Source: Octopus sinensis
Taxonomy: Eukaryota
Assembly (NCBI RefSeq): GCF_006345805.1
Contig: NC_042997.1
Span: 192,510,001 to 192,574,000, forward strand
DNA: 64,000 nucleotides
Direction of reading: 5' to 3'
Both the position numbers and the translations under genes were made by a program. Below, piece by piece: positions 1-62,265 of the stretch. The notes beneath the pieces were generated by a model, which saw only the letters and a program-made list of their open reading frames with translations, did not search any database and was not told the DNA's origin. The first letter of the stretch is position 1, and each line of letters begins with the position of its first letter.

Positions 1-371
1 CAATATCAAAAGCCAATAGTGATATCAGTTAGTTAAAACAACATTATTTTCATTTTGTTTCCCTTTATTTTCTTCTTATCACAAAGACTGCTGCACACTT
101 GAGGCTATCGGAGCACTTCTAGGTTAATGACAAACAGATGTTGATGTTCACTGTCTCCGTCTAAAACAAGACTTTCACCACCCTAATTCAATCTGTTAAC
201 AGTTCTAACCATGGCATTCGTTATCATCTGATAGAAAGAATCAATGTTATTCATGAGTCAAATCCTTTTATTATTATTATCATTATTATTAATAGAAATA
301 TTAAAATAACTAAGTCACCGAAACTAGGTAAATAAAACCATCGAACAGAGATTGTCGGAAGCGACACCTAC

Positions 372-431
372 TGGCTGGCTACGCTGCATTGAAAAGGGGC
401 AATACTCCGAAACGCGTCTGTAGCTGCCGGT
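372..431 (+). ncRNA. Type I hammerhead ribozyme, U3-A8 core variant
   Basis: ggctggc-TAC-gctgca-TTGAAAA-gggg(caata)ctcc-GAAAC-GC-GTC-tgtagc-t-gccggtc; stems I, II and III pair; predicted cleavage after C418. Confidence 0.75.
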
Positions 432-1064
432 CAAGTAGTGTGGAGCGACTGACCTCCCTTGTTCGAAGGTTATATGGATACAGTTTGTGTATCAAATAGC
501 TAACTTAAGGCGATGGCCTCATGGAGCTAATAAGCGGACAGCTTTTTTCTTATTTTTATAAGAATGCCATATTAGTATGGCGATAACTATTATTATCATT
601 ATTATTATTATTGACTTGAGTTACTCAACACACACTGATCGAAATTCTCCGCCATCTTTAATCCAAGTAATACTTCTTCCAGCCTGAATAATATATTTAG
701 CTTCAGTAAGACATTTCATAAAATGCTTTTGATACTAGACAGTTTCCTCAGTGTCAACAAATAGATTAATTCCAGTACAATGTGGTCACCCGATAATTTT
801 TCTGCACAAGGTAATCTAATTTGCAACCAGATGAAGCTGTGTGATGATTGAACAACATTTTAAAGAGAAACTGTATAAGGGACGTTTTACTGTCCTGTAC
901 CACCCTTTCAGCAAAGACATTTGAGAAATGTTCATAAACTGTGAATTTCTAGGTAATTTTTTGCGCCTTCATTCGTCTCAACAAACATTGAAAAAGGCAT
1001 TATTCACACAATGGTGGCCTTATGTAAACAGAGGTATTCATCATTTGCCAGAACACTCCTTTAA

Positions 1065-1206
1065 AAGTTAGCGGTTCAGCAAAAGGGACCAATAGAATAA
1101 GTACTAGGCTTACAAAGAATAAGTCCTGGGGTCAATTTCCTTGACTAAAGGCAGTGCTGCAGCATGGCCACAGTCAAATGACTGAAACAAGTAAAAGAGT
1201 AAAAGA
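1065..1206 (+). mobile_element. tRNA-SINE family B, 3' fragment
   Basis: Matches the tail of family B copies (…gcatggccacagtcaaatgactgaaacaagtaaaagag). Confidence 0.85.
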
Positions 1207-1369
1207 TCTATATAATTATCATAAATAATGTAAATAATTATCATAAATGTAACAATTCACAAAGGGTATCACACTTGGCTACTTTTACACCATCCATCTT
1301 TTACTGGATGGTTCCATACAATAACATCATGCACCCAGATTGATATTTCAGTCTTTAATTAATGTTAAA

Positions 1370-1620
1370 GAGCAGGTGGCTCGCTCGCAAGAAAGTTTCT
1401 AAAAACACTTGAAGAAATCTGGCCACCCAGGTCTTGTCGAGGCATAGGCAACCACTGTAAACAGTGTCTTTGTTGTTGTTCACATCCAACAAAACTACCC
1501 GGAGATGTTGGATCCAAGAAGGTTGTCTGTACCTCGATATCCAAACCCTTCAAAAATAACGTTGTCACCATGTCCCCCGATCTGGGCGACTAAAAGATGT
1601 GTCCACTCGGTCACGTTGAT
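1370..1620 (-). pseudogene. Degenerate L1/Tx1-type APE endonuclease fragment
   Basis: Frameshifted translation VQTTFLDP / VVLLDVNNN / FTVVAYASTRPGWPDFFKC / LETFL resembles Tx1 endonuclease. Confidence 0.45.
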
Positions 1621-3504
1621 GGTTGTTACAACAACAATTTGCTCTTAAAAAAGGATCTGAACTGTATAACTTGTCGTGTTCTCTTGCTATAAAATATATT
1701 AAAATATATTCGATATATATATTCTTTTTTTCTTTTACACTTCAAAAAGAAACAAGATTCTCACTCTAATTGATCAATTGCAAAAGATCAATAAACTTGT
1801 TAATAATACGACAATGATATTTTCAAGTTGGATCTTGTCTAATGATTCAGTTCAAAGAAACCTCGTCCGGCTTGAATTAGCCTTCAAATCACTTCAATCT
1901 TAAAAGAAATAGATACACATTGGATAATCTCCTATCTTCTTAAAGGAAAAATATATAAGATAAAGTAGTCTGGGGTACTTGTTTGTTTGTCTACTTATCC
2001 CCCCTCTGTCTCTGTCTCTCTCTAATGGATACTGATCAAGCGAATATATAATGGAGACAACGTAAGCATTCACTACTTCTGACGGCGTTTCTGGGCCAGC
2101 TTCCTTTCAGCTTATTGCTAGATGAGGCTGGCCATTCTGCTCAAAATGTCTTCCTAGTTACAATTCACCTGAAAGTCTGGACTGAACCAGACCTCAAGCA
2201 GCTTAACTGGTCCATGTCCCCAGTAACCATCAGAAAGTCGCATACATTTATTTGAAATTGAGTAGCGCACATGCACGGCCAAGCCTACTAAACATTGATG
2301 TGTGAATGTATTTCGACATCATGGCTTTGCAATCAGGGTCCATCGGACGGCTTTGGTTCCATTGTGTTTTAGGACTGCGCATTTGCAGCTCTACCATGTT
2401 ATTGTCTGAGTCCTGGAAGATAATCAGTACCTGGAGATCAAACCTTTCTGAGACACCACTGCCACATCGCTTCCCAATACAGACCAACTCTAAAAAGAGA
2501 TGAGAACACCTAGTCTCGCTGATGGCGGCCCAGTGGCGTAGCTAAAGTGTGTGCCGCTCAAGACAGCCCTTGAGTTTACCACCCTAATCTGGTCCCAACA
2601 GGCTGCACAGGCTTACACAGCACACCCAAAAGTACCGCATCCATAAAAAGCCACCCAGACAGAACACCCCACGCCCCCATCCTATCCATGCTCCTGTGGT
2701 TACCATATTTGTAATAGTAACTTGAAGTCGTTAACCTTGCTTCCAGTCGACCTCAGTTCACATTTGTAGTGGCACAAGCAGTCAGCGCCATATTGGATGA
2801 GATCTTGCCAGCAGCTGTTGCCATCTCCGAGACTGGAGCGAGATCTTACCTGCATCCATTTGCCATGCATAAGATCACAACGAGGCTCGCGATGGCAAAC
2901 TGGATATAAGGGCCCAACAAACAGATTCTTTCTCTTCTTCACTGCAAGCGCTTGCTGAACACATATATTTGCTGGCTGGGTCTCCAGGCTAGTCCTGTCT
3001 GCACATCGTATCTCCATAGGAAATGGGCCCGCATTAACGGAGACACAACGAGACGTACACAGCTTGAGATGGTCTACTGAGAGCGACACACATCATTTAT
3101 TCTGTGTAACTATGTAACTAAAACTGGTTGTGAATTCACATTTCCACTTGAGACTTCTTTCCTTGCCTGCTGGAGCCTGAAACAACACAAAGAACAATTT
3201 TAAAGGGAGAAGGCGATATTCATCCGATATCATGAACCTTGCTTCCCATTATACATTCATTAGTGCGACATATTTTACGTTGGTCAGAGAGAGGACCAAG
3301 AGATCACTTGTCTTTGTCTCTTCAGTTTATCTTTGTCTCTTGTGTCTCTTCAGCAGTTTAGGAGACAGAATCACTCCTTCTTTGAAAATCATTTCCAAAA
3401 TGTCTTTCTTGTTTTTGCAGAGATGTCCGGTGTCAAAGGGATATTTTTTTTATTGCTGCTTACAAAAATTATACAAGGTCACTCCCGACCTGAAAAGTCA
3501 AATA

Positions 3505-4784
3505 GGATTTTTTCGGTTTGAACGGCAGGTTTTTCTAGCGGTGTCATATAAAATTGTCACCCATAATTATGACCCTAGTATCGATTTATTGCATTTCAAT
3601 CTGTTATAGAGTTAGGGTTAGGGTTACGGGTGGGGGAAGGGTATCTTTTTTTCTTCAGAAATGTAAATAAACCCAAGATCTTTTCGGTTTGAACGGCAGT
3701 TTTTTAAAATAATTTCCACGTAACTAAACACTTTTAAACTTCGTATACTGGTAGAATGTGTTTATAAAACATCTTTTTCTCTTGGCTTTATTGAGAAAAT
3801 TCTATAGTTTGTAAGATCTTTGTTGTGTTTTTTCTTCAATTTCTGCAATTTCAACTAATCAATGACGTCTATTGAGGTGAAAACATTCTGTGCCGTATGA
3901 ATATGTCCCTCGTTTAAGTAACAGATTGGGTTTAGGATTTTTTCGGTTTGAACGGCAGGTTTTTCTAGCGGTGTCATATAAAATTGTCACCCATAATTAT
4001 GACCCTAGTATCGATTTATTGCATTTCAATCTGTTATAGAGTTAGGGTTAGGGTTACGGGTGGGGGAAGGGTATCTTTTTTTCTTCAGAAATGTAAATAA
4101 ACCCAAGATCTTTTCGGTTTGAACGGCAGTTTTTTAAAATAATTTCCACGTAACTAAACACTTTTAAACTTCGTATACTGGTAGAATGTGTTTATAAAAC
4201 ATCTTTTTCTCTTGGCTTTATTGAGAAAATTCTATAGTTTGTAAGATCTTTGTTGTGTTTTTTCTTCAATTTCTGCAATTTCAACTAATCAATGACGTCT
4301 ATTGAGGTGAAAACATTCTGTGCCGTATGAATATGTCCCTCGTTTAAGTAACAGATTGGGTTTAGGATTTTTTCGGTTTGAACGGCAGTTTTTAACATAA
4401 TTTCTAGGTAACTAAAGAATTTTAAACTTCGTATACTGATAGAATGTGTTTATAAAACATCTTTTTCTCTTGGCTTTATTGAGAAAATTCTATAGTTTGT
4501 AAGATATTTGTTGTTTTTTTCTTCAATTTCTGCAATTTCAACCAATCACTGACGTCTATTGAGGTAAAAAACATTCTGTGCCGTATGAATATGTCCATCG
4601 TTTAAGAAACAGATTGGGTTTATTTACATTTGTGAAGACAAAAAGATACCCTTCCCCCCAACCCTAACTAACCCTAACCCTAAAATAGATTGAAATGCAA
4701 TAGATCGATACTAGGGTCATAATTATGGGTGACAATTTCATATGACACCGCTAGAAAAAACTGCTGTTCAAACCGAAAAGATCC
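3505..4784. mobile_element. Rearranged array of a Merlin-like MITE: two 430-bp half-inverted units plus one full reverse copy
   Basis: TIR motif RGATYTTTTCGGTTTGAACGGCAG starts at 3505, 3676, 3935, 4106 and 4365 and closes in inverted form at 4784; homologous to the intact copy 30159-30598. Confidence 0.9.
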
Positions 4785-4789
4785 AAAAA

Positions 4790-5360
4790 AACTATTTCTT
4801 CAACTCCGACAGACTTGCAGAATTTTAATGGTATTAAAGAAAAATTAACTACAGTTACCCTGCTAGCCCATCCGGTACTAGATGCTCCTCTATCACTGAT
4901 AGTAGATGCATTTGATGTTGGAATCGGTGGAGTACTGCAACAGTTTGTCCGAAATTCTTGGGAAGCTCTTTCTGTTTTTTGAAGTGTTTCAAGCTAGCTG
5001 AAACGAGGTACAATACTTTCGGATGAGAGTTATTGGCAGTTTATTTGTCTGTGAAACATTTTACTGCTTCTTGGAAGGACGAACTTTTAACAATTATACT
5101 CATTATAAACCATTAACTTGTGCATTGCAATCCAAAATGGATAAATACTGCCCAACAGTCTTCAGACGCCATGGTTATATTTCAGTTTACTGTAGACATT
5201 AGTTATATCGAGCATGCTGAAAATTCTGTTTCAGATACATTTATCCAGTGTCTGTATAATTGCTCCGCATTCTGCTGATATAATTGATATGGAGAAGATT
5301 GCTATGAATCAGAAACAATCTGAAGAGTTACTGCAACTCCGAAATTCTGAGTCAGGTATT
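4790..5360 (+). pseudogene. Gypsy LTR-retrotransposon pol fragment (RT connection / RNase H)
   Basis: FNGIKEKLTTVTLLAHPVLDAPLSLIVDAFDVGIGGVLQQ…ETRYNTFG*ELLAVYLSVKHF…FLEGR, with stops and frameshifts. Confidence 0.9.
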
Positions 5361-5407
5361 TCCTGAAGCAAAGACGACAGTTAGACGGTAATATATTATC
5401 AAGGTGA

Positions 5408-12443: not shown

Positions 12444-12721
12444 CACCCAAAAAATTCTCAAGTCATCTCTGGCACTCAAGTCCGGCGACGGGCCTGGTTG
12501 TTGCTTAATTTCAGGTCAGCACCGATTGAGTAGACTTATGATGAAAAGCCGTTCCAGCCCTGACCGTCCTTTCACTTTTTTTTTTCCATACCTAGTATAT
12601 CCAGTGGCACGTGATTCAATGCACCCCGTCTTCCTTTTATATGATTTGAGGAAGATTTAGTTGCTATTTATAGCAGGTCGAACGACCGACCTCGTAGTTA
12701 CCGTTTTGTTGGCTCACTAAG

Positions 12722-13474
12722 TATTCATCATCATGATCACCATCATCACCATCATCACCATCACCACCACCATCACCATCATTACCATCACCACCATCAC
12801 CACCACCATCACCATCATTACCATCATCACCATCATCATCACCACCACCATCACCATCATTACCATCATCACCATCATCATCACCACCATCATCATCACC
12901 ATCATCATCATCATCATCATCACCATCATCATCACCACCACCATCACCATCATTACCACCATCACCACCATCCCCACCATCACCATCATCACCATCATCA
13001 TCACCACATCACCACCATCACCACCACCATCACCATCATCCCCACCATCATCACCACCATCATCACCACCATCATCATCATCACCACATCATCATCATCA
13101 TCATCATCATCACCATCACCATCACCACCATCCCCACCATCACCATCATCCCCACCATCATCACCACCATCATCATCCACCATCACCACCACCATCACCA
13201 TCATCCCCACCATCATCACCACCATCATCATCACCACCATCACCACCATTACCACCACCATCACCATCATCCCCACCATCATCACCACCATCATCATCAC
13301 CACCATCACCACCATTACCACCACCATCACCATCGTCCCCACCATCATCACCACCATCATCATCACCACCATCATCATCATCACCATCACCATCACCACC
13401 ATCACCATCACCACCATTACCACCACCATCACCATCATCCCCCACCATCATCACCACCATCATCATCATCATCA
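12722..13474. repeat. Compound (CAT/CAC)n trinucleotide array with local 66-bp higher-order periodicity
   Basis: Direct reading; tcccc markers at 13204, 13270, 13336. Confidence 0.95.
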
Positions 13475-13994
13475 TAGAAAAACTGAAGGTGAACTCTAAT
13501 GGGTTGAATCCAAATTATACCGATAAAAAAAAAATCACGAACGTCACTTTTACAGTCTTTACTACTTCCCAGCCCCCTCCACCACCACCACCACCACCAA
13601 AAACCACCACCACCACAAATAAATAAATAAAAACAAAAGCGTCAAACCTACGTCAGAACAACTTAGGCTTGTGGCAATGGCAATGATGATAACAATATAT
13701 ACTTACAGCAGTACAACAGGAAGAAATAGATCTGGGACATTTGAAAATATTGTCTTAATGTCGAAAACACAGGAAACAGAATTGATTAGCCTTATGTAAA
13801 AAAAAAAAAAAATTCTGAAGAATAATAATAATAAAATATAAAAGATTGGGGTTTTTTTTTCACAGTTTCGCTTAATATGTCACAAATATCGAATATCAGT
13901 TACATTCAAGTTATCCAATAATGTATGGTTACCGTAGACTTCTTACATAATCTGTACCAAAAATTTCTCCCAAAATAAATAGGTTCTCTCTTTG

Positions 13995-14025
<31 letters not shown>

Positions 14026-15306
14026 ACCACTTGCTCTCTCTCTCTCTCTCTCTTAGACAATCAACAATTTGTACAGTATTATAGAATTTAAATAAAAAAA
14101 AAATTATCAAAGACACCGCCCGAACCACGTTATGTAATAATTACGTGAACGGAAGCATTTTTGAAATGTGAGAAATTTTCTTCGAATTTATTTTCTATTT
14201 TTTTTTTCCTTCTCCATGTACAATAGTCTTTTTTTTTTCTTTTTCTCTCTCCGAAATTTACAAACACAATCGTTTAAACTTTTCTGCATTTAACGTAAGA
14301 TTGACTTCAAGACATTCTTCACTCATTAATTTTCTTCCATGTTCCACCCTAGCTAATGCCATTTTCTGTTTTTTTTTTTATGCTTGCATTAATAATCCCT
14401 CTTCCACACTTCCTCAGAGACATTCTCTTCCCACTACATCATCGTTCCTTTTTCTTTTCTTATTTATTTTTTCATTTACTTTTTTTTTTAAATACACTGT
14501 AGTGAGTCATATTGTCGTTCTGCTATTTCAAACATTCTTCTAACTTATTAGCTCTCCATTCACAGTTTCCCGTCGATGCTAAAACACTTCTATACTAAAA
14601 CGTTTATCTCTCTTAATACCGCTCCTTACTTAAAGTAGATCATGCATTACCACTCCTGTCTACACTGTTCTTCCTTCAACCAAAGGAGTTATCTTGTATC
14701 ATTAATACTTCCTAAATGCACACACAGAGCATTTTGTTCACTTATTCTTTTACATTTAAATTGTGGGGGAACATGAACGCCTGGACACCTCCGCTGCCCA
14801 ACTCTCTTATAAATATAATTATTATAAGTTGATATAAGAAATCAGTGTTAATTGTTTAACTATCAAATTTGTACGAGAAATTAAGGCCGCGTAACGTTTC
14901 TGTTTTCCGTTAGCCTGTGTTTGTCAGGTTCAAATGTTGCCAGATGTATAAGGCATAGAGGAAATGAGGAAATATCTCTCAGCTGCTTTAACACTGTACA
15001 CTAAGTTCAAATAAGTTTCGACATACCTGATGTGTTTACGGTTAACACATGCCAGAAATTACAAGCATACAAATGGGTCTCTGATGGAAGATCTTGCTGA
15101 AATTAGGTACAATTAGAAATGGGTTTAACACTGCCAGACTAACTCACTTCCACCTCCTCTTCCTCCACGCTTCCTCGTCCCATCAATATCTCAAGACCAA
15201 GTCTTGCCCATCAATAACCCATCAATAACCAATTCTTTTCCCATCACTTGCTTCCAGATCAAGTGAAGTCTAAACAAGATTTGTGGAACAACTTCTCGTC
15301 CCATCA

Positions 15307-15915
15307 CGAAATGAGACAACTGGGCGCAGCTGTTTAGACGTTGGTGATTTGGCGCGGTTCACCGAACATTCAACCTATATTGGTGACAGGACACTTTGAC
15401 GCCGGAGACATGCACACGCACGCGTGCTGAAATATACACGTGCAAACAGAAAGAGTGTAAGAAAGAGAAAGAGAGAGGGAATATAATTTATTAATTGAAC
15501 ACGATTGGCACCAACACTTACTCCCTCTTGATACACTTAAAATGAAATATGATCACACACATAGCACACACACTCGCGCATTCACACATACACACATGCG
15601 CACGCACACGCACATTTACATACAAACATAGGCGCATACACACACACACACACACACACGGATACACTTATGCATACACGCAAGCACACTCATATTTTCA
15701 CACATGCACGCGCGCACATACACTCACACATACGCATACACACATATACACACGGATACAACAAAAAAGAGGTAAGGGGATGGAGAGTGAGGATGGAGGG
15801 AGGAAGGGAGAGAACGAGAGAAACATCAAAACGTCTGATAATAAATAAGTCAGCGTCGAATCAGCAACGCCAAGTAAGAGGCGCCAAAACAGCTGTGCCA
15901 AAATGTCTCATATCC
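15307..15915. mobile_element. Mutator-like MITE
   Basis: Imperfect TIRs (atgagaca…gcgcagctgttt / aaacagctgtgcc…tgtctcat); 9-bp TSD gtcccatca/gtctcatca. Confidence 0.6.
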
Positions 15916-16262
15916 GTCTCATCAATATCTCGGCACCAAACGCTGTTGCCCCATAAAAACCTCCAAACCTAGCTATCACCACATCAAATAAACTTCCAGA
16001 CCAACTCTCGCCATATCAAAATCTTCAGATTAAAATGTCTTCTCTGTACTTCCAGACAAAACTTATCAATATCTCTGAACTAATTCCAATCACATCAGTA
16101 TTTTCAGATCAAACTTCCTTCCAGTCAGTATATAGGGGGGGAATCTTTTACCCCGCCATTAACTGAAAGTTTAAAAAAAAATTTTTCTACTTTTGTAAAG
16201 GGTCTGTTATTCTTCAGTTTCAGATTCATCGAACTTATCGATTCTGGACAGATGAAAAATTG

Positions 16263-16505
16263 AAGGCGCGCGTCCTTGTGGTTACGGTGTTGCATCGACG
16301 ATCGCAAGATCATATTTTCGATCCCCGGACCGGGTGATGCGTTATGTTTTTGAGTAAAACACCTCGTTTCACGTTGCTCCAGTTAATTAAACTGTAAATG
16401 AATATCCTGCAACCGGCTGGCGTTCTGTTTGGCGATGGAGGGCAGTATGTTGTGGCCTCGGTCATTCATACGCTAATGGAAACGGGGTAACCGGCCTTAT
16501 GAAAT
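16263..16505 (+). mobile_element. tRNA-SINE family C (diverged)
   Basis: Head and core ttgagtaaaacacctcgtttcacgttgctccagt. Confidence 0.75.
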
Positions 16506-16539
16506 CCAGGACTCGAGACAGATATGTCCAGGGGTTGAT

Positions 16540-16676
16540 AATGATGATGATGACGATGATGACGGTGATGATGATGATGATGATGATGACGATGATGATG
16601 ACGGTGGTGGTGATGGTGGTGACGATGGTAATGATGATGATGATGACGACGACGACGATGATGACGATGATGATGA
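16540..16676. repeat. (GAT/GAC)n microsatellite
   Basis: Direct reading. Confidence 0.95.
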
Positions 16677-17862
16677 AAAGCAAAAATCAGTTTCATTGGG
16701 TTTTAAACACTGATCACCGAAACTAAATGCCTTATCGAACAATTCACTAATAATCGGTCAATGATAACTGAAATTTTCCCAGAAGTAAAATCGATGCAGT
16801 ATGAAGAAGTGATATCTAAAACAACAATGGCGACAACGACGATGACAGTTACAGCATTTATAATAGTAATGTTGGGAAGTCAGATTAAGTTTTCTATGTG
16901 ACAATTCAGTCGAATAAATTGATGAATTGATGATGTTATGACAAAGTACAAAGTACTAGAGCGCAGAAAATCGTTCGGTGGTTACCATAGAAACAGACCC
17001 ACGTGAGCTGTTACGATTGAACATGCTTTCAGCTCAGCCGAACTTCGTCAACAAAGTGTTTTGTGTTTGTCTGTCGTAAACATACTCAGTTTTTTTTTCT
17101 GACCCATTGCAAATATATGGCAATATAATTCCTGTAAAATTCTGAGTTTTTTCCCCTATTAAATATTCTTCCCCCAAAAGTGTATGTCATAGGAAGCAGT
17201 TAACTAATATAGTAATATCGTTAGACATATGAAAAATCACAGCTATGAAAAATGAGCGGTTGTTGCTTTGTTTCGTCTCGGGTAGACCAGAACCCTTTTC
17301 ATGAAATACGCGTGGACTTTGCATGGGTTATCGCCGCTTTTTTCTGGTTGTCAAACTGGTCTTAACCTTACCTTAAATGTAACATCACTTTGAATGCAGT
17401 AAAACATACGTATAAAGTAATCGCCCCGTACGCTCTGAGCTCGCCTCCCTTCGCTACTGATTAACTCACCTTCAGACCAACTGAAGACTCATCAGAACTT
17501 ACAGATCAACACTTTCATCATTAAAACATCCAGATCAAACACTTTCCGATCAAAATCTCCTGTCAACTTTTACCCAATCAATACCCACTGAAATTTTTCC
17601 CTCTCTCTCTCTCTTTCTCTCATCAATACCTTCAAACTAGCTCTGAGCTCAATATCTTCTGATCTACTCTCTTTCCTCAATATCTCCATATCAACTCTCT
17701 CTCATCCTTACCTCTTGAACAACTCTTTCATTCCCTCCCCCTCCACCCTCTCTCTTCCTATCAATACCGCCAGATCAATTCTTCCTCGTCTCTCTCCATC
17801 TCTAACCTCCACCTCCCTTCCCCCCCATTCCCGTTATCTATCCCTCGCTCTCCTATCTATCT

Positions 17863-17927
<65 letters not shown>

Positions 17928-17928
<1 letters not shown>

Positions 17929-18078
17929 CAAATTCCGCCGAGGTCGACTTTGCCTTTCATCCTTTCGGGGTCGATAAATTAAGTACCAGTTACGCACTGG
18001 GATCGATGTTATCGACTTAATCCGTTTGTCTGTCCTTGTTTGTCCCCTCTGTGTTTAGCCCCTTGTGGGTAGTAAAGA
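17928..18078 (+). mobile_element. SINE family A, 5'-truncated, inside a (TATC)n array
   Basis: Family A core and tail. Confidence 0.85.
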
Positions 18079-18080
18079 CA

Positions 18081-18150
<70 letters not shown>

Positions 18151-18151
18151 C

Positions 18152-18220
<69 letters not shown>

Positions 18221-18404
18221 CCTCCATATCGACTTTCACCCCCACTCATATACTTCCACACAATCTCTCTTCTTCTCCCTACTCCCCAGACTAACTTTGT
18301 CAACATCAATACTCCTTCCAAACGACTCTAACGTCATAAAAGGCATCTCACCTGCGAACAGTTCCTCTGTGGGTAACTTAGATTATATTACCTAATATAT
18401 TTTA

Positions 18405-19063
18405 GGCACGGAAGTGCCGTCAGTCGAGCATGTCCGAGATGCACGCAGGGCGACGAGACGGTCTTGCATGCTCTCGTCCTGTGCCCGAACATTGCTAACT
18501 TGTGGGTTATGTCGAACATCTGCTGTCGCTTGTGAGACGGATCTGGCTGTCAACTAACGTGAAGATTGCCTCACCACCTTCCTTTAACCGGGAAGGGCAG
18601 GCTGTCTTTATATGCCTGGTGGCCAAAAGCGAAAGAGTATATTTGATCAGTCCCTGAACAACTTTTTCAAATTTCAACTTGAAGAGGAAAATAAGGGTAG
18701 AGAGGGAAATGTTGTCCTCTAGCAAGATTGCTGAACGATGGATGAGAATGGCAAGAATTGTGCGAGTGAACGGACCTGCCCTGAGCATATGCCTGTAATT
18801 GGAGAAAAGGAAATGAGAAAAGGCGCCTGCCCCAGAAGCCAGGGCACCCACGGTTTTATGGGGTTTTTCATGAGCAGCCCTCGAACGTCTCCTCTCTATT
18901 CAGGATCACATATTAATCTTTCTCCTCCTTTCTGTTAAGCTTGCTTGTATGCAAACCCTCACAACGACACACTCGTACACATAAACACATACATTCTTTG
19001 TTTTGTCATGCACTGTCCATAATGGTTTTCTTAATGTAAACCTTTGGTGGTGAATAAAGAAAT
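18405..19063 (+). mobile_element. Tx1/L1-type non-LTR retrotransposon 3' fragment (zinc-knuckle region and 3' UTR)
   Basis: HGSAVSRACPRCTQGDETVLHALVLCPNIANLW (CCHC knuckle), frameshifts, terminal aataaa. Confidence 0.8.
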
Positions 19064-19142
19064 CATTAATATTTTTATAAGGATTGTTGAGCATTGGGGT
19101 TAATGTAATCGAATTGCTGGCCCTGTGCCAAATTCGAAACCA

Positions 19143-19280
19143 TTATTATTATTATTATTATTTTGGTTTGGATCAAGTTCGGTCTTATTCCTAGTAGGAA
19201 TTATGTGGATAACCTTAGGTATCTACACGGTTTCAGCAGTCTTTCAGGTGCTTAGAACCCTCCTGATAATCCTTGCTGTC
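19143..19280 (-). mobile_element. Extremely 5'-truncated Dong/R4-like element
   Basis: TARIIRRVLST* resembles the R4-clade C-terminus (compare GTSHVLRRALSM at 63394); 3' UTR runs into (AAT)n. Confidence 0.6.
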
Positions 19281-19628
19281 TCCTCCTCCTCCTCCTCTTC
19301 TTCTTCATCATCATCATCATTCTCCTCCTCGTCCTCCTCCTCCTCCTCGTCGTCGTCCTCCTCCTCCTCATCATCATCATCCTCCTCATCATCATCATCG
19401 TCCTCCTCCTCCTCCTCGTCCTCCTCGTCCTCCTCGTCCTCCTCCTCGTCCTCCTCCTCATCCTCACCATCCTCCTCGTCCTCCTCCTCCTCATCATCCT
19501 CATCCTCACCATCCTCCTCCTCCTCCGCCTCCTCCTCTTCCTCCTCCTCCTCCTCCTCCTCTTCTTCTTCTTCTCCTCTTTCTTAATAATAATAATAATA
19601 ATAATAATTATAATAATAATAATGATAA

Positions 19629-19720
<92 letters not shown>
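19280..19720. repeat. (CCT/CAT/CGT)n followed by (AAT)n
   Basis: Direct reading. Confidence 0.95.
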
Positions 19721-19721
<1 letters not shown>

Positions 19722-20910
19722 TTTTGCTTTAAATTTGTCAAGATATGATTTGGGTGAGATGTGGCTACAATCAGTAAACCTCTGTCAGAGTCTTTTTACC
19801 TTTATTATTCAGTTTTAAACATGAAAAAGAATCAAATCAGTTATACATAGGGATAACCAGTTCGTTTGCCGAATCGATTAGCACACATTTGATATCTTAG
19901 CTTAGATTTTTACGGACACATAATGGTTCTCCATATAAATTTCAGTCGCAAGTATTTCGTCGATATGCAGCTATGGTAAAAAGACCCACACAAAACGTTA
20001 AGTACAGTGGGTTTGATCCCTGAATTGCGTGATGGTGATATCCAGACGATAGTATCTTGTAAAAAAGCATCCCTGATTAACTAATGTACTTGATTTGTTT
20101 TTCTCTTTGTAACTTATGTTTGCCAGAATATAAGAGGTCTTACAGGCTTTCAATTTCCTGTAATTAAATTAGCTAAGTCTATTAACTATTCTAGTTCAGT
20201 ATTAAACATATAACTGTTTTTGTGTCAGCTTTATGATTCGCCGGTTTGTTTTATTGAGGTACTTAGAAAATTTCCATTTTGACAATTCTGTATTTCCTAT
20301 TCTCCTCTTATCTTTATTTCCTTTTCTGCTCTTATCTCGATAATCTTAAATGATTTTATTAATTTATAAATATTTTCTCATGTATATCGCTCAATTTTAT
20401 ACTATAAAGTTTGCTTGAGGCTTCATTCATACCGCTAATGTCAGATGGTCTTAAAATATCTGTCAGTTACTTAAATAATGATTTGTAATAAAGGCACAAT
20501 GTCATGGAATAGTGGGAGGATATCAGCGATTAAATCGAGCTCTGCACTTAGCTGGCTACTATGGGCTGGCAAAATCGTTAAGTCGTTGGATAAAATGTAT
20601 TTAGTTATGGCTTCCACGTTTTGAGTGCAAATCTTGACCAGCTCAACTTTTCCTTTCAGGATAGATAAATAAAGTAATCGATAAATAAAGTAATAGAACT
20701 GTATATGGGTCGATACTCTTCTTTCATTCTGTCTGTTTATCGGTATATATATATCTCTAATTCTGGAAGAAATCAGTTGTCAAATCTGGAAAGAAATGGG
20801 CTACGCTAGATCTGAAACTGTCCAAGATATATTGTATGTCATGACAGTGTCCCTACAACTTCAGCAAGGGGATCAAGGCATCTAGTAGGGTCGATTTAGT
20901 ATTCCTATAA

Positions 20911-21143
20911 AGGGTGCGAGCGGTCAGAATCGTTAGTAGACCTGGTGAAATGCTTAGCGTTATTTCGTCTGCCGTTACGTTCTGAGTTCAAATTCCGCCG
21001 AGGTCAACTTTGCTTTTCATCCTTTCGGGGTCGATTAAATAAGTACCAGTTACGCACTGGGGTCGATATAATCGATTTAATCCCTTTGTCTGTCCTTGTT
21101 TGTCCCTTCTATGTTTTGGCCCCTATGAGCAATAAAGAAATAA
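20911..21143 (+). mobile_element. SINE family A
   Basis: Full head, core and tail; tattcctataa on both sides. Confidence 0.9.
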
Positions 21144-22428
21144 ATATTCCTATAAAGCATTCTTGATGGTTATCAAATTATAAGAGAAGCGTCCAGATAG
21201 GTAGATAAAAAGTAAATTCACCCATGGCAGGACTTGAACCCGAAATGTAAAAAAAGATATCACTGAATGTAGAAATATATTTTGTCCGATGTTCTACACT
21301 TTTCTTTTCTTTTTACTAATCCTCTCATTTAAACCAGACAATTCTTTTGTGCAGTCTACTTAAATGGAGCCCGTTTCTGGCAAGGGATCAGCTAGAGCTA
21401 AACTATAATACAGCGATCGTTTTGTAAAATGAAACAACAGAAAAGAAAAGTGATGAGTCACGGGAGAAAATATCAGGTTACAAGGAAAAAATGTGCATAA
21501 GTATAAGAGAGAATGTAATAAAAGGAAAGACTTATAGATTGCCAATACTGAAATGCAGAAGATATATGATTGCAGGCTATAAAATAACATTAAATTGTTC
21601 CTTTTATATCAACTGTAAGACGAATGGAACTATTCTTCTGCTAAATACTGTGTTTGGAGAGTAGGTTTTAAAAAGTTAACTGAAAAGAATAAAGTATCAT
21701 TAATCTCGGTCTGTTTTAAAGGAAATTTAATATTTTGCGAACAATTAGTCATACGAGAAAGAACTAATATGTAGGTAGCAAATTCGCTATGTTTTAGCTA
21801 GTGTCATGACAATAATTGATTTTAAAACTACATTTATTGCTTTCACATCGACTTTATTGCCTGCAGCTAAATCATCTAAATCGAATAACTATAGATTCCG
21901 CTTGAAATCTGTTTAGACAACTGATGATGGAACATAAGTAAACCTTTATTATAGGATTAGGAACAGGCGACTTAAGTAGCATCGGCGTTGTAAGGGAAGT
22001 AACTCTTAATTGTAATCCTGGAATTGTTTTCATTTCATCGCCCGAACGTTACCAAAACATTACAATTAAACTGTGTACATTTTCTCGGTATGTTTTACCC
22101 GAGGTAAAATGAGGTCCGTCACTCAATGTAAATCGCATCTCTCTATCTCTCCCTAATACCTATTTCTTTACTACCTACAAGGGGATAAACACAGAAGGGA
22201 CAGACAAGGACTTGTCTACTGTACTGTGCATGCATACATACATACATATATACATACAACTTTCCAGTTTATCATTTAAGTATATATGCGCATGTCTTGA
22301 CATGCAACTATTAATATATGCTTGAGAATACATGCATAAAACAGAACATACAAATCTGCACATGCACTAACACCAAATAGTGCACATATACATACATACA
22401 TACATACATACATACATACATACATACA

Positions 22429-22462
<34 letters not shown>

Positions 22463-22518
22463 CACACATACATACATACATATATACACACATACATACA
22501 TACATAGTAATTGATATA

Positions 22519-22740
22519 TTTTTCTTTACTACCCACAAGGGGCTAAACATAGAGGGGACAAACAAGGACAGACAAAGGGATTAAGTCGATTACATCGACC
22601 CAGTGTGAAACTGGTACTTTATTTATCGACCCCGAAAGGATGAAAAGCAAAGTCGACCTCGGCGGAATTTGAACTCAGAACGTAACGACAGACGAAATAC
22701 CGCTAAGCATTTCGCCCGGCGCGCTAACGCTTCTGCCAGC
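22519..22740 (-). mobile_element. SINE family A
   Basis: Family match; taattgatata on both sides. Confidence 0.9.
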
Positions 22741-22768
22741 TAATTGATATAAAAGTTTTTTTAAACAC

Positions 22769-22970
22769 GGATCATTACCTTTTGACCGACAGTGATTGGT
22801 TGAAATTACCGAAATACTATAACTTTAACGTGAAATAACTTCCTAGGTATAAGCTTTTCTCAAAAACGCTAAGAGTAAAAGATGATTTATATGACACAGT
22901 GTCCGAAGTTTGAAAGTGTTTAGTTATAAAAAAATATTTTAAAAATCTGTCGGTCAGAAGGTAAAGATCC
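22769..22970. mobile_element. Merlin-like MITE, short subfamily
   Basis: TIRs GGATCATTACCTTTTGACCGACAG / CTGTCGGTCAGAAGGTAAAGATCC; perfect 8-bp TSD TTAAACAC; internal similarity to the 30159 element. Confidence 0.85.
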
Positions 22971-23335
22971 TTAAACACTATAAAACCGGCTAAAACCCGA
23001 GGTAAAATGAGGTCCGTCACTCAATGTAAATCACATCTCTCTTCTCTATCCCTCCTTAATACATTCCACAACTTCAACACAGATTCCCCAACCTCTCCAC
23101 TGCATTCTTTATACCCGATTACAGTAGCCCCATTAACTGTCACGGCGCAGGATTCCCAGAATAGCTAGTCTACTGCCTAGCTGCTCATACGGTCATCTAT
23201 CCGGAATACTAAGGGCGACTGAACTGGGTATGTTCAGACAATTGAAGCGGATTACCGTTATGTTGTGCCATTTTTGAGAAAGTAAATATTCTCTCATCTT
23301 TTGATAATGACATTCCTTTTCATACATGTGTGTGC

Positions 23336-23382
<47 letters not shown>

Positions 23383-23492
23383 TATATTCGTTTTGCAAGA
23401 TTCTTGATGTGAAATCGTTTGTTGAAACAGATATTATATTTAGGGACGGTCATTTTGCCGATAAGCACACCGCACTGTTTATTTGATCTTCG

Positions 23493-23530
<38 letters not shown>

Positions 23531-23583
23531 TCTTGTCAAAGTTCTTTCGTCACGCATACACACACACACACACACACACACAC

Positions 23584-23654
<71 letters not shown>

Positions 23655-23750
23655 ATATATATGTATATAATTAATTAAGGGTAGAAATCAATATTTATCA
23701 ATTAAAACCAGTGGTCTAACATATTAAAAAAATCCGAAGATTAAATATTT

Positions 23751-23811
23751 ATATATACCAATTAAGGACTGAACACGAAAAAGTCCACTTTTTCGTGTTC
23801 AGTCCTTAATT

Positions 23812-23820
<9 letters not shown>
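23751..23820. repeat. Perfect 34-bp-arm palindrome next to (TA)n
   Basis: atatataccaattaaggactgaacacgaaaaagt-cc-reverse complement. Confidence 0.95.
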
Positions 23821-23894
<74 letters not shown>

Positions 23895-25055
23895 CATATG
23901 TATATGTAGATTTACACACAAACGCATGAGCCTGCGCACGCATGTACGCACGGACGTCACATACTTTAACTTTAATATAAATATCTCCCCCACCACCAAA
24001 AAAGAAGAAAGAAAAGAAAACTGAGTTATAATTACGGTATACACAGCATACACAATGCATACGAACTTATATATATACAGGCTAGAATAATTTTGAATTT
24101 GTCATATCGCCAACAGAAAAACAAAAAGGTAAATAAAAGTTGTGTTTCCATAATTTTGTCCAACTCCAGTATGTACATCGGGAATTGGAAAGATCAATAT
24201 AATTTTCTTCGTTCAAAGCCTGCTCATTCTTTTCCCTTTTTCTTTTTCATTTTTCAACTACTATTATGTGGACCGTACGCAGCCCATTGTATCAGTTGCG
24301 TTCTCATGCATTATATTCAATGAAAGTCATTGCCAATGAAACAATCGTTTGCAAAACCCGTCTGTTGTTCTGATGAGTCCTCTGCAGTTTATAATCAATT
24401 ACTTCACGTGATTATGCCATATGTGATTGAGGACTTCAATGCCGTGGCTTGAAATTCATTGTTCATTGCTATCTGGTTGTATTGCTGTTTTTGATTTGCT
24501 CAGGCGTAAGTGCAGGTGCATACACGTACATGTATGCACACACTAACTCGACCAAATATTTACAAACCCCCGGAATTTACCTTGACTCAAAAAGTCGTGT
24601 CACTTTGTTAGCGGTCGGCTTGAACTCCATTAAGAACTTAAATCTCAAGCAAAACCATACATACATAACAAATTAATAAATAAAACATATACATAATAAA
24701 TACATATATGTACATACCTACATCTATATGTATATATACATGCATATATGGGTACAGGACACCAAAAAAAAAAAACGTAGAACACAACGAGAAACGAAAA
24801 CATAAAAACAAAAACATGGAAACGGACTTTTTCAAACAACGAAGAAAAACTGAGTACAAGACATACAACACAAGGAACATTCCCCTTCTTCAGCTGCCCT
24901 TGCTTCGACTACTCCGTGTTTCGAAGGTAAGGGCAAGACACGACTTCGCTGAAACAATCCTTCCCGCAAAGCAAATTAAATAAAATTTGGGATTTTTTGC
25001 GGAGGGGTAAAAATAGTGACAAGAACAGGACAATAACATACATACATACATACAT

Positions 25056-25090
<35 letters not shown>

Positions 25091-25287
25091 TACATACATA
25101 CATACATACATACATGCATGCATACATACATACATGCATGCATGCATGCATACATACATACATACATACATACATACATACATACATACTACATACATAC
25201 ATACATACATACATACATACATACATAGAGTGGTTGTATAAGTCAACATAACGTGAGTGGTATCACCGCTATCGGGGACACGCTACC

Positions 25288-25331
25288 CTGGACTGATGAC
25301 GGGCAATACCCAGAAACATGCATGTCTTCAG
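25288..25331 (+). ncRNA. Type I hammerhead ribozyme
   Basis: ctgga-CTGATGA-c-ggg(caata)ccc-a-GAAAC-ATGCAT-GTC-ttcag, preceded by TAC. Confidence 0.8.
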
Positions 25332-25736
25332 ATTGCTAGTCCTAGCTGGTGGGGGTGCTTGCCTCCCCTTTGCAAATATAAGGACACAGGGAATGTGTCA
25401 AAGCCGACATGAAGCCTCGATGCTTCCTAGGGCTATATAGCGGCGGTGTAATTCCCTCTACCGGACTGTCACGTTATATTCATTATATAAATATCTCAAA
25501 AGTATTTTCTGTTACTTGTTTTTTAATATAAATTTACTCGTGTAAAACATCTTAACCCCATACATACATACATACATACATACATACATACATACATACA
25601 TACATACATACAATACATACATACATACATACATACATACATACATACATACATACATACATACATACATACATAGAGTGGTTGTATAAAGTCAACATAA
25701 CGTGAGTGGTATCACCGCTATCGGGGACACGCTACC

Positions 25737-25780
25737 CTGGACTGATGACGGGCAATACCCAGAAACATGCATGTCTTCAG
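25737..25780 (+). ncRNA. Type I hammerhead ribozyme (duplicate)
   Basis: Identical to 25288-25331. Confidence 0.8.
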
Positions 25781-26097
25781 ATTGCTAGTCCTAGCTGGTG
25801 GGGGTGCTTGCCTCCCCTTTGCAAATATAAGGACACAGGGAATGTGTCAAAGCCGACATGAAGCCTCGATGCTTCCTAGGGCTATATAGCGGCGGTGTAA
25901 TTCCCTCTACCGGACTGTCACGTTATATTCATTATATAAATATCTCAAAAGTATTTTCTGTTACTTGTTTTTTAATATAAATTTACTCGTGTAAAACATC
26001 TTAACCCCATACATACATACATACATACATACATACATACATACATACATACATACATACATACATACATACATGCATAAATGCATGCATACATATA

Positions 26098-26488
26098 CTC
26101 TTTTACTTGTTTCAGTCATTTGACTATGGCCATACTGGAGCACCGCCTTTAGTCGAGCAAATCGACTCCAAGACTTATTCTTTGTAAGCCTAGTACTTAT
26201 TCTATCGGTAATTTTTGCCGAACCGCTAAGTTACAGGGACGTAAACACACCAGCATCGGTTGTCAAGCGATGTTGGAGGGACAAACACAGACACACAAAC
26301 ATATACACACACACATATATATATACATATATACGACGGTCTTCTTTCAGCCTCCGTCTACCAAATCCACTCACAAGGCTTTGGTCGGCCCGAGGCTATA
26401 GTAGAAGAAACATGCCCAAGGTGGCACACAGTGGGATTGAACCCGGAACTATGTGGTTGGTAATCAAGCTACTTACCACACAGCCACT
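26098..26488 (-). mobile_element. SINE family B
   Basis: Family match. Confidence 0.9.
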
Positions 26489-26524
26489 CATATATACACG
26501 CGCGCGCGCACACACACACATCCT

Positions 26525-26820
26525 AGCACTCTGTCAATTACGACGACGAAGTTTCCAGTTGATCCGATCAACAGTACAGCCTGCTCATGAAATTAATGTG
26601 CAAGTGGCTGAGCACCCCACAGACACGCGCACCCTCAACATTGTTCTCAAAGAGATAAACGTAACACAGAATGTGTTAAGGGTGGCACTTTGAAATACAG
26701 GTACAACTCATTTTTCCAGCTGAGTGGACTGGAGCAACGTGAAATAAAGTGTCTTGCTCAAGGACACAACGCGCCGCCTGGAACTGAACTCACGACCTTA
26801 CGATCGCGAGCCAAATAACC
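26525..26820 (-). mobile_element. SINE, head C with tail X
   Basis: Head ggcgcatggcttagtggttg, core cttgagcaagacactttatttcacgttgctccagtcc; tail shared with 59084-59280. Confidence 0.85.
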
Positions 26821-26948
26821 CAACCACTAAGCCATGCGCCTTCACACACACACGCACTCATGCACACACGCATGCACGCTCGCACGCACGCACGCACGCA
26901 CGCAAGCACGCACGCACGCAAGCACGCACGTACATTTTAAGAATGTAA

Positions 26949-27350
26949 TCTTCTTTATATATAAAAGTGAGGTTGTGTGCTGTCTGTCTCCCACGATTTA
27001 GATTCCTAACTACTCCCACATTTTGCGGTGCAGTTTAACCAAAACCGGGTATCTTATAGTCGTGATTCATATCGAGCCCTTCTGGGTATTAGCGCGCGTC
27101 TACGATGAGTCTACGATTTTAAAAATAATTTACCATCATTTTTTTCCATTTTAATGCATTTTTCGCTATTATATAAGGGAAGTAACTCTCTAAAAATGTC
27201 TACGATGAGTCAACGACTTTTAAAAAAATTTAACATCATTTCTTTTCCATTTTTAATGCATTTTTTGCTATTTTTTGGCTATAACTCTCTAAAAATGCTT
27301 ATATAGTTATTTCCCTTACAAACCCGAGCAACGCCGGGCGATACTGCTAG
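26949..27350 (+). mobile_element. Non-autonomous Helitron
   Basis: A|TC…hairpin…CTAG|T. Confidence 0.9.
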
Positions 27351-27619
27351 TTCATAATATAGGCAGACGAAGCTCCTCGTTATCAGTTGATGAAGTGGCC
27401 TCCAATGTGGCCTCACTATCTACAAAGGTGTCTTTAGGAGTATCGAGTCCTTAGAGTAAATCCTTTACGTGAGAACTAACAAAATAGCCCCAGGAAATCT
27501 GGTAAAACTAGGTCTAGAAAGGTTCATATGGTTCAATACATTGACATTTACATATCCGTTATGCTTAAGTGAGAAATATTTTATCACGTTTCAAGACAAA
27601 TCAGTTTTAAACTAAATGT

Positions 27620-27974
27620 CTGAACGGTTCTATATTTAAGAAATGAGCAATTATGTACATTATTTACATTATTTACAATTGACGGATATTTGTCCTCAAA
27701 TTGTTTGTTGTTAACAGAACGTTTCGGCTGATATACCCTCCAGCCTTCATTAGGTGTCTTGGGGAAATTTCGAACCTGGGTTCTCGTTCCTAAGGTATTT
27801 TTCGATGTTGCTGTTGTTGTTGTTGTTATTATTATAACCACTACGGCATATGGCGTAGTGGTTAAGAACGCGGGCTACTAACCCCAAGATTCCGAGTTCG
27901 ATTCCAGGCAGTGATCTGAATAACAACAACAACAACAACATCGAAAAATACCTTAGGAATGAGAACCCAGGTTC
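27620..27974. mobile_element. Penelope-like terminal repeat in inverted arrangement, with tRNA-like head (27845-27915 +) and mutated minimal hammerhead (27713-27758 -)
   Basis: A box TGGCGTAGTGG, B box GTTCGATTCC; gacac-CTAATGA-a-ggctg…cagcc-GAAACGTT; same family as 55113-55580. Confidence 0.8.
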
Positions 27975-30022: not shown

Positions 30023-30158
30023 ATTATAATTAACTATATATTTCCTTCGATTTTTGTTTTTGTCTAAATTTTCTGTTTGTCGTTCGTTCTATATAAAGTT
30101 GTTTACAGAAATAAAAACGGCTAAAATCTGATATGCATTTTGATCAATTAAATGTTTC

Positions 30159-30598
30159 AGATCTTTTCGGTTTGAACGGCAGTTTTTTCTAGCGGAGTCA
30201 TATGAAATTGCCACCCATAATTATGATCCTAGTATCGATCTATTGCATTTCAATCTATTTTAGGGTTAGGGTTAGAGTTAGGGTTAGGGTTAGGGTTAGG
30301 GGTGGGGGAAGGGTATCTTTTTTTCTTCAGAAATGTAAATAAACCCAATCTGTTTCTTAAACGAGGGACATATTCATACGGCACAGAATGTTTTCAGCTC
30401 AATAGACGTCATTGATTGGTTGAAATTGCAGAAATTGAAGAAAAAAAACAACAAATATCTTACAAACTATAGAATTTTCTCAATAAAGCCAAGAGAAAAA
30501 GATTTTTTATAAACACATTCTACCAGTATACGAAGTTTAAAAGTATTTTGTTACGTGGAAATTATTGTTAAAAACTGCCGTTCAAACCGAAAAGATCC
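30159..30598. mobile_element. Merlin-like MITE (440 bp) with internal (TTAGGG)n
   Basis: TIRs AGATCTTTTCGGTTTGAACGGCAG / CTGCCGTTCAAACCGAAAAGATCC; telomeric hexamers at ~30259-30301. Confidence 0.9.
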
Positions 30599-31251
30599 TA
30601 ACTATATATTTCCTTCGATATTTTTTAGTCAAAATTTCCTGTTTGTTGTTTGTTCTATATAAAGTTGTTTACAGAAATAAAAACGGCTAAAATCTGATAT
30701 GCATTTTGATCAATTAAATGTTTCTTTTTATTTCAATATTGTTTTATTTTCTTTCACATCATTTCAATGAAACAATATATTACGCATTCAGGATATAAAA
30801 TATCGAGTCACGAAGTGTAGTATACGTTTCCCGTAATTTTTGATTCAGTGTTGTTCGTCCTCTGAGCCGCCTTATGAAGTCACAAGGCTTCTTGGTTTAT
30901 TACCAACGGTAACGTATGGTTGGATGATTACTACGCCTTTTTTTCTGCGTCATTAATGACGCAAGTCAATGGATACAGCAACAGTCAGACACCGGAGAAG
31001 AGAGACAGATTCTGTGATTCTGTTCCCTGTGAAGCTTCTTGTATCAACACGACAGCGGTTGAAAATGATAGCAGAATGTGTGTGTGTTTGTGTGTGTGTG
31101 TGTGTATGTGTGTGTGTGTGTGTGTGTAATTGAAATAGGTTAATAATGCAATCAAGCTTAGTTACACGTCTAAGAAACAAATTATATTGGTTAATTGGCA
31201 GAAAAGCTAAAGATAGGTACAATTAGAAGAAAATGGTATCATTTTATATAT

Positions 31252-62262: not shown

Positions 62263-62265
<3 letters not shown>

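What the first reader, a model, noticed from the sequence alone, without database searches (positions are those of the whole stretch)
3505..4784. MITE array with the geometry of an autointegration inversion circle
Seen: each 430-bp unit is left TIR plus left half ending in TAAACCCA, joined to the tip of the right TIR plus the inverted right half ending in TGGGTTTA, which is joined to the next TIR tip. An 8-bp internal site (9 bp if the junction A is counted) is therefore duplicated in inverted orientation at both TIR junctions. The related MITE at 22769 has an 8-bp TSD. Established: intramolecular transposition of cut-and-paste elements yields inversion circles with TIR tips joined to an internal target. 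Inference: a suicidal autointegration product was reintegrated or amplified as a concatemer.
Basis: partly seen in the sequence, partly recalled or inferred. Interest (0 to 1): 0.7.

Follow-up and report, generated by a model that had tools for sequence, protein, structure and literature searches.

The report
Self-inserted, flipped transposon repeated in place
A short non-coding DNA transposon is split at one internal site and rejoined to its own two ends back-to-front, twice in a row, likely because its ends attacked its own sequence on the chromosome rather than as a free circle, which would make this a natural fossil of a known transposition error.

Summary
The geometry is real in the assembly. 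Two identical 430-bp units (3505-4364) each join both TIR tips of a 422-bp Merlin-like MITE to one internal 8-bp site duplicated in inverted orientation. This is the mark of one transposase strand transfer into the element itself. The rest (4365-4784) is not a third unit but a different, intact copy (about 93% alike), joined by a crossover inside the 24-bp TIR. There is no outer TSD, and the two flanks come from different insertions. The geometry does not prove a circle: hybrid-element insertion (ends from two sister chromatids) gives the same string in one step. A neighbouring family copy (30159) sits between a 128/126-bp tandem duplication, a known mark of such alternative transposition. Two public runs confirm the left flank-to-tip junction. 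None of the rows shown confirms the internal junctions, and their contigs run past the point where the repeat junction should break them. Tip-to-internal junctions at other sites are common in this very abundant family, some at tens of times single-copy depth. Odds: in-place hybrid insertion 0.45, circle copied back in 0.3. A known kind of error in a little-studied superfamily; modest interest.

The parts
3505..3675 (+). X1: left TIR (tip carries a private C>T at position 5) plus left arm, ending in the 8-bp internal target (3668-3675); sits on unique chromosomal flank
   Evidence: alignment; flank-to-tip junction held without difference in runs X1 (3194-3539) and X4 (3213-3539)
3676..3934 (-). 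Y1: right TIR tip (first base A instead of G) and inverted right arm, ending in the reverse complement of the 8-bp target (3927-3934)
3935..4105 (+). X2: identical second copy of X1
   Evidence: 430/430 identity of units
4106..4364 (-). Y2: identical second copy of Y1
4365..4388 (+). 24-bp shared TIR core in which the array crosses over into another copy: position 5 follows X, position 25 onward follows the right arm
4365..4784 (-). E2: intact 420-bp family copy in reverse orientation, 10 substitutions from X and 14 from Y; a separate insertion
4785..5300 (+). Right flank: decayed Ty3/gypsy pol fragment (RT RNase H-like), starting at the E2 tip; its upstream RT part is not in the left flank. 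End coordinate approximate
   Evidence: PF17919 E 2.7e-9; tblastn; frameshift-aware test
30159..30598 (+). E3: intact 440-bp family copy without TSD, at the junction of a tandem direct duplication
30031..30158 (+). First copy (128 bp) of the duplication flanking E3
   Evidence: 93.75% identical to 30599-30724
30599..30724 (+). Second copy (126 bp) of the duplication flanking E3, starting at the first base after the TIR
22769..22970 (-). Related 202-bp MITE with GG-starting TIRs and exact 8-bp TSD (22761-22768, 22971-22978); about 70% identical to the right arm

Best explanation
The array holds two identical copies of a 422-bp MITE whose two ends are joined back-to-front to one internal 8-bp site, likely made in place when a Merlin-type transposase paired the right end of one sister chromatid with the left end of the other and inserted both into the element itself (hybrid element insertion). 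Shown: the junctions, the unit identity, the TIR crossover into a different copy, the missing TSD and the unrelated flanks. Inferred: step 1 gives flank, X, Y, then an intact element; step 2, unequal exchange between the identical X arms (or an assembly doubling), adds the second unit; step 3, recombination between the third left TIR and the right TIR of a neighbouring reversed copy deletes what lay between. The structure is inert debris; no function is claimed.
For: Hybrid insertion with the target on the sister gives the observed order in one step (symbolic test). All three left-type tips share a variant absent from the other 5 TIR matches in the window, as expected for sister copies. The first left tip sits on unique chromosomal flank, and that junction is held without difference in two public runs of different studies. 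A second family copy lies exactly at the junction of a 128/126-bp tandem duplication without TSD; TE-at-junction duplications are a described product of alternative transposition (PMC3744419, passages and Discussion), and hybrid element insertion between sister chromatids is defined in PMC2775673 (passages). The left flank is not the upstream part of the gypsy fragment on the right (score 21.5; 13 of 60 random stretches score as high; positive control 73.5), which fits a later deletion. Autointegration of SB and PB rises with size and SB avoided its IRs (PMC3952818, passages), which makes a 422-bp free circle less expected.
Against: It needs three events, whereas copying round a circle explains two units, a third tip and the exit at the TIR in one repair event. 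The donor TSD that should enclose the product is absent (3 of 8), so the donor-site claim rests on one flank. The product of a circle recombined into its own donor copy is letter for letter the same. The right end still has to bend back 259 bp to its target. The 30159 duplication shows no excision footprint and could have another cause. The internal junctions are not confirmed by reads. The right tip at the internal junction begins with A, not the conserved G.
Confidence: 0.45

Rival explanations
1. Autointegration circle copied back in. The excised MITE attacked itself, the 430-bp inversion circle was repaired, and during repair of the donor site (or by crossover with the sister copy) synthesis ran twice round the circle and left through the 24-bp TIR into the neighbouring copy.
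For: Unit length equals element plus target (171+259 = 422+8). Units are identical and the period runs 2.06 turns, ending inside a TIR. One repair event would explain doubling, third tip and deletion. Inversion circles are established products (PMC3952818, PMC3544897, passages). Rolling-circle concatemers are a proposed route to TE tandems with the circularisation step stated as unclear (PMC5932611, passages).
Against: Needs loops of 171 and 259 bp in a 422-bp fragment, host repair of two gaps, and re-entry by homology, since all TIRs on the circle point one way. The array starts in register with a left arm on chromosomal flank that two other runs also hold. No circle can be seen with these tools, and a circle-free route gives the same string.
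Confidence: 0.3
2. Ordinary nested insertion of another family copy in inverted orientation, then a flip by recombination between the inverted right arms, then tandem doubling.
For: Gives the observed order. The family is very abundant and tip-to-internal junctions at other sites are common (3603, 3618, 3630, 3707, 3804, 3817, 3822, 3869, 3915 joined to the tip). Inverted nested insertions with both junctions are reported in Drosophila (PMC5932611, passages).
Against: The second and third left tips should come from a different copy, about 5-6% diverged as other copies are, yet X2 equals X1 and the third tip shares its private variant. It works only if the inserted copy was a fresh daughter of the host or was later homogenised.
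Confidence: 0.1
3. Part or all of the array is an assembly product: the exact doubling, the identity of the units (polishing), or the join to E2 through the shared TIR.
For: In runs X1 and X4 the flank contig runs to 3539, past the 31-mer at 3503-3533 that has two different predecessors in the window; a real unit-to-unit junction should break it at 3532. No listed piece (24 shown of 66,627) bridges 3675/3676. The window holds another near-perfect doubling, 332 of 333 columns identical (25228-25559 vs 25676-26008). Flanks are unrelated and lack a TSD.
Against: Misassembly joins at shared sequence and would not create two tip-exact junctions with an 8-bp inverted overlap (chance about 0.6%). Logan contigs come after SPAdes-like graph simplification (bioRxiv 10.1101/2024.07.30.605881, passages), which can drop short single-copy links beside very deep repeats, and the runs may be other individuals with an unrearranged allele.
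Confidence: 0.15

Closest known systems
Hybrid element insertion (Drosophila P element) and sister chromatid / reversed-ends transposition (maize Ac/Ds)
   Same: Two ends from different copies inserted at one target with a normal-length target duplication; flanking tandem duplications with the element at the junction, as at 30159 (PMC3744419, PMC2775673, passages).
   Different: Here the inferred target lies inside the element itself, the element is a 422-bp MITE, and the superfamily is likely Merlin; the maize cases use two nearby elements and host targets.
Autointegration inversion circles of Sleeping Beauty, piggyBac and Hsmar1
   Same: Both ends joined to one internal site, target duplicated in inverted orientation, full element length retained (PMC3952818, PMC3544897, passages).
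   Different: Those are free, assay-recovered or in vitro products of kilobase elements; this is chromosomal, doubled, attached to unique flank and fused to another copy.
Merlin superfamily MITE
   Same: TIR core of 24 bp starting GG, 8-bp target duplication (definition in PMC8101967, passages); Merlin is reported as abundant in Octopus bimaculoides there.
   Different: No transposase partner found; two tips read AG; no outer TSD on either family insertion in the window. hAT and P elements also make 8-bp TSDs (PMC3744419, PMC5932611), so the label rests on the GG ends.
Mu killer and Ac composite insertions (inverted duplications of a transposon's own sequence)
   Same: Self-derived inverted repeat: 3935-4105 pairs with 4614-4784 in a long stem (fold -200.9 kcal/mol, z -25).
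   Different: Those are transcribed and silence autonomous elements (bioRxiv 10.1101/2020.01.07.897926, passages); here the stem is about 170 bp of non-coding arm from two copies, and transcription was not tested.
TE-derived tandem arrays and satellites
   Same: Tail-to-internal and inversion junctions, low-copy tandems as seeds of satellites (PMC5932611, PMC12628747, passages).
   Different: Only two units; the repeat unit is a permuted, half-inverted element, not a head-to-tail copy.

Membership tests
Merlin superfamily | TIRs of 24-462 bp | tested here: met
   24-bp shared core, about 29-30 bp with mismatches; range from PMC8101967
Merlin superfamily | Terminal 5'-GG-3' | tested here: met
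   5 of 8 TIR matches start GG; 3 start AG (3676 and its copy 4106, and 30159); both tips of the 22769 relative start GG; public joints show G before 3677
Merlin superfamily | 8- or 9-bp TSD | tested here: inconclusive
   Internal duplication is 8 (or 9) bp and the 70% relative has an 8-bp TSD, but 0 of 2 family loci in the window have an outer TSD
Merlin superfamily | Autonomous partner with DDE_Tnp_IS1595 domain sharing the TIRs | not testable with these tools
   No genome held; no long transposase-like frame seen in the 77 ORFs of the window, of which only 4 stretches were scanned with Pfam; TIR absent from metagenome and genome collections
MITE | Short, non-coding, TIR-bounded, high copy number | tested here: met
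   420-440 bp; 12,454-30,388 contigs laid per run, summed depth 0.5-6 million against 14-59 for single-copy flank (not a copy number)
Autointegration inversion circle | Both ends joined to one internal target, duplicated in inverted orientation; length = element + target | tested here: met
Autointegration inversion circle | Both ends come from one excised molecule that exists as a free circle | not testable with these tools
   Needs eccDNA data; the chromosomal string is the same under hybrid insertion
Circle concatemer inserted at a new site by transposase | Outer ends enclosed by a TSD and contiguous flanks | tested here: not met
   3 of 8 letters match; left flank is not the continuation of the gypsy fragment on the right
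Hybrid element insertion product | Participating copies identical (sister chromatids) and first end still on chromosomal flank | tested here: met
   X1 = X2, private tip variant in all three left tips; flank junction in runs X1 and X4
Hybrid element insertion product | Donor TSD retained around the rearranged element | tested here: not met
   No outer TSD; explained only by a later deletion through the TIR crossover, so the locus is not filed as a proven member
Hybrid element insertion product | Family shows adjacent duplications or deletions ending at TIR tips | tested here: inconclusive
   One case, 30031-30158 / 30599-30724 around 30159-30598; n = 1, no genome census possible

The most novel reading that the evidence does not exclude
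A 'suicidal' autointegration circle of a Merlin MITE was rescued: donor-site repair ran twice round it and fixed a permuted, half-inverted unit in the germline. Self-insertion junctions of this family are then amplified to tens of copies, giving a transposase-driven route from MITE to satellite and supplying the circularisation step that rolling-circle models of TE tandems lack.
Probability: 0.25. Interest if true: 0.6.

Novelty: new variant of a known kind. Interest (0 to 1): 0.32.

Why it matters
Either route shows that the transposase of this family makes a coupled two-end strand transfer with an 8-bp stagger into its own element and that the product reaches the germline. Merlin chemistry is little studied (recalled), so a family this abundant is a ready test set: a genome census of paired junctions would count in-place hybrid insertions against circles, and would test whether self-insertion seeds tandem repeats. 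If the circle route holds, autointegration is not always a dead end. As a single two-unit locus without read support for its inner junctions it changes little by itself.

Tried and rejected
Own genome: none held, so no census of copies or TSDs. TIR pattern in metagenome contigs and genome contigs: 0 matches. A shorter 16-mer gave 119 loci, all chance: longest alignment to the MITE 30 bp at 83%. The search for homologous proteins on the right-flank peptide found nothing; the HMMER scan did. Idea that both flanks are one gypsy element interrupted by the array: rejected. Idea that E2 was the resident copy and a circle crossed over into its TIR: rejected, because the TSD and the gypsy upstream part should then remain on the left. 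Simple nested insertion alone, direct or inverted: does not give the order. Raw-read run X21: only 5 reads laid, all 90-95% alike, from about 3% of the run; uninformative. Run X16 has no cover over 3288-3455 (76% read), which proves nothing. Reads were laid on 2700-3934 only, so the junctions at 4364/4365 and 4784/4785 were not examined. Earlier findings of the scan: 4 look-ups, nothing. Literature searches (listings only) showed no natural chromosomal inversion-circle product of a MITE; most subscription papers are not held, and Preston 1996 and Gray 1996 were seen as reference titles only. No supplements were read; those of PMC8101967 and PMC13282606 may list this family.

Full report
Setting. 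The window is AT-rich, microsatellite-rich eukaryotic DNA with one 100-N gap. Its dispersed repeats look like octopus SINEs; that label is recalled and was not tested. No genome is held.

Anatomy. Two intact copies define the element: 30159-30598 (440 bp, forward) and 4365-4784 (420 bp, reversed). Write it L a t b R, with t the single 8-mer TAAACCCA. Alignment shows 3505-3675 = L a t (X, 171 bp) and 3676-3934 = R' b' t' (Y, 259 bp). X and Y overlap by 8 letters, or 9 if the A at 3676 is counted as target and the tip as one base short. The parent element would be 422 bp. The unit is repeated with 430 of 430 letters identical, and the perfect period runs 3503-4388. What follows is not a third unit. 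4365-4784 differs from X by 10 substitutions and 5 gap columns and from Y by 14 and 3. Its first 24 bases are the shared TIR core: position 5 carries the T private to X, and from position 25 it follows the right arm. So the array passes into another copy by a crossover or template switch inside the TIR.

More than chance. All 8 TIR matches in the window belong to these two loci; 100 shuffles gave none. Two independent internal breaks would overlap by 8 or 9 bp in about 2 of 362 cases, and both junctions fall at TIR tips. One staggered strand transfer into one internal target is the economical reading.

Family. TIRs of 24 bp or more starting GG with 8- or 9-bp TSDs define Merlin, and Merlin is reported as abundant in Octopus bimaculoides (PMC8101967, passages). 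A repeat annotation of O. vulgaris lists 2 recently active Merlin families (PMC13282606, part 1 of 3). 5 of 8 tips start GG and 3 start AG. No transposase partner was found, so 'Merlin-like' is the limit.

Outer ends. The 8 bases left of 3505 and right of 4784 match at 3 of 8 places; 34% of random pairs do as well. The right flank is a decayed Ty3/gypsy RT RNase H-like fragment (PF17919, E 2.7e-9). The RT stretch that precedes it in relatives is not in the left flank: mean score 21.5 over 12 of 42 usable relatives, against a null of 20.1 (sd 2.3; 13 of 60 as high) and a positive control of 73.5 (tblastn one search agrees). The flanks therefore belong to two insertions, and the DNA between them is likely lost. 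This rules out a concatemer inserted by transposase at a new site, and a circle crossed into the TIR of the reversed copy.

Geometry does not pick the route. Of 7 geometries written out, simple nested insertion in either orientation fails. Three give flank, X, Y, L: an inversion circle recombined into a resident copy; hybrid element insertion, where the right end of one sister chromatid and the left end of the other attack t; and nested inverted insertion followed by a flip. The first two give the same string. The third should leave a different copy's left arm in second place, but X2 equals X1 and the third tip shares its variant.

A second locus bears on the choice. The copy at 30159 has no TSD but lies exactly between two direct copies of host sequence, 128 and 126 bp, 93.75% identical, found nowhere else in the window. 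Duplications bounded precisely by a transposon are a described product of alternative transposition in maize (PMC3744419, passages and Discussion); hybrid element insertion is the sister-chromatid or homologue form (PMC2775673, passages). That P elements give element-at-junction duplications is recalled; I saw only the title of Preston 1996. This is one case and shows no footprint. Autointegration in SB and PB grows with size, and SB avoided its IRs, attributed to physical constraint (PMC3952818, passages). That counts mildly against a 422-bp circle, though hybrid insertion also needs a 259-bp loop. For the circle: 2.06 identical turns ending in a TIR are what one round of repair synthesis on a circle would leave, and rolling-circle origin of TE tandems is proposed with the circularisation step unclear (PMC5932611, passages and one section).

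Public reads. 20 of 24 listed runs hold part of 2900-5400, from 9 studies. Four were laid on 2700-3934. For: the flank-to-tip junction is held without difference in X1 (3194-3539, depth 43.4) and X4 (3213-3539, depth 18.9), two studies. Against or open: none of 24 listed pieces (of 66,627) bridges 3675/3676, and no 3934-to-3505 joint is among the 15 of 22 and 12 of 74 joint rows shown. The flank contigs run to 3539, although the 31-mer at 3503-3533 has two predecessors in the window and should break them at 3532. So the unit-to-unit junction is absent from those two graphs, either pruned by simplification (bioRxiv 10.1101/2024.07.30.605881, passages), or because those individuals carry an unrearranged allele, which would favour an in-place origin, or because the assembly is wrong. 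The window holds another 332/333 doubling. X16 lacks cover of the flank, and the raw run X21 gave 5 reads. The same call shows a very abundant family (12,454-30,388 contigs laid; summed depth 0.5-6 million, not a copy number) and other tip-to-internal joints: 3603, 3618 and 3630 at single-copy depth; 3707, 3804, 3817, 3822, 3869 and 3915 at depths of 170-4,275 against 14-59 for flank. Whether those tips are left or right is unknown. Self-targeting is thus common here, and some junctions are amplified.

Verdict. Shown: the junctions in the assembly, the chimeric right end, the lack of TSD, the left junction in two runs. Inferred: the transposase origin, the route, the order of steps. In-place hybrid insertion 0.45; circle copied back 0.3; nested plus flip 0.1; assembly product in whole or part 0.15. 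It works like alternative transposition or autointegration, both known; the variant is a self-targeted event in a Merlin-like MITE fixed in a chromosome. Five literature searches (listings only) showed no such natural case, but the library lacks most subscription papers. Interest 0.32; 0.6 if the circle route were shown.

Noticed in passing
window 30031-30724: Family copy without TSD exactly at the junction of a 128/126-bp tandem direct duplication of host sequence; likely an adjacent duplication made by alternative transposition.
   Followed up: partly
window 3804-3822 joined to 3677 in runs X1, X4, X16: Tip-to-internal junctions at far above single-copy depth (3817 joint: 4,275 in X1, 794 in X4; 3804 joint: 1,040 in X1). 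Amplified composite elements or tandem arrays of this MITE exist elsewhere in the genome.
   Followed up: no
window 25228-26008: Tandem doubling between (CATA)n tracts, 332 of 333 columns identical, one homopolymer indel; very recent slippage or an assembly doubling.
   Followed up: partly
window 3612-3626, 4669-4683, 30260-30301: The MITE's left arm carries a TTAGGG-type repeat tract whose length varies between copies (about 7 units at 30260).
   Followed up: no
window 4785-5300: Decayed Ty3/gypsy pol fragment with stops and frameshifts, beginning at the tip of the reversed copy; upstream RT part missing from the window.
   Followed up: yes
window 3400-3504: Acceptor-like AG after a pyrimidine tract, then ATG and a hydrophobic run of about 19 codons reaching the MITE tip; could be a signal-peptide exon or chance.
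   Followed up: no
window 62213-63394: Open frame of 393 codons with a weak zf-RVT match (E 6.8e-4, below cut-off); likely the 3' part of a non-LTR retrotransposon.
   Followed up: partly
window 57898-58604: Two minus-strand frames resemble Helitron Rep/helicase protein (recalled, not scanned).
   Followed up: no
window 3935-4784: X2 and the left arm of the reversed copy form an inverted repeat of about 170 bp (fold z -25); would give double-stranded RNA if read through.
   Followed up: partly
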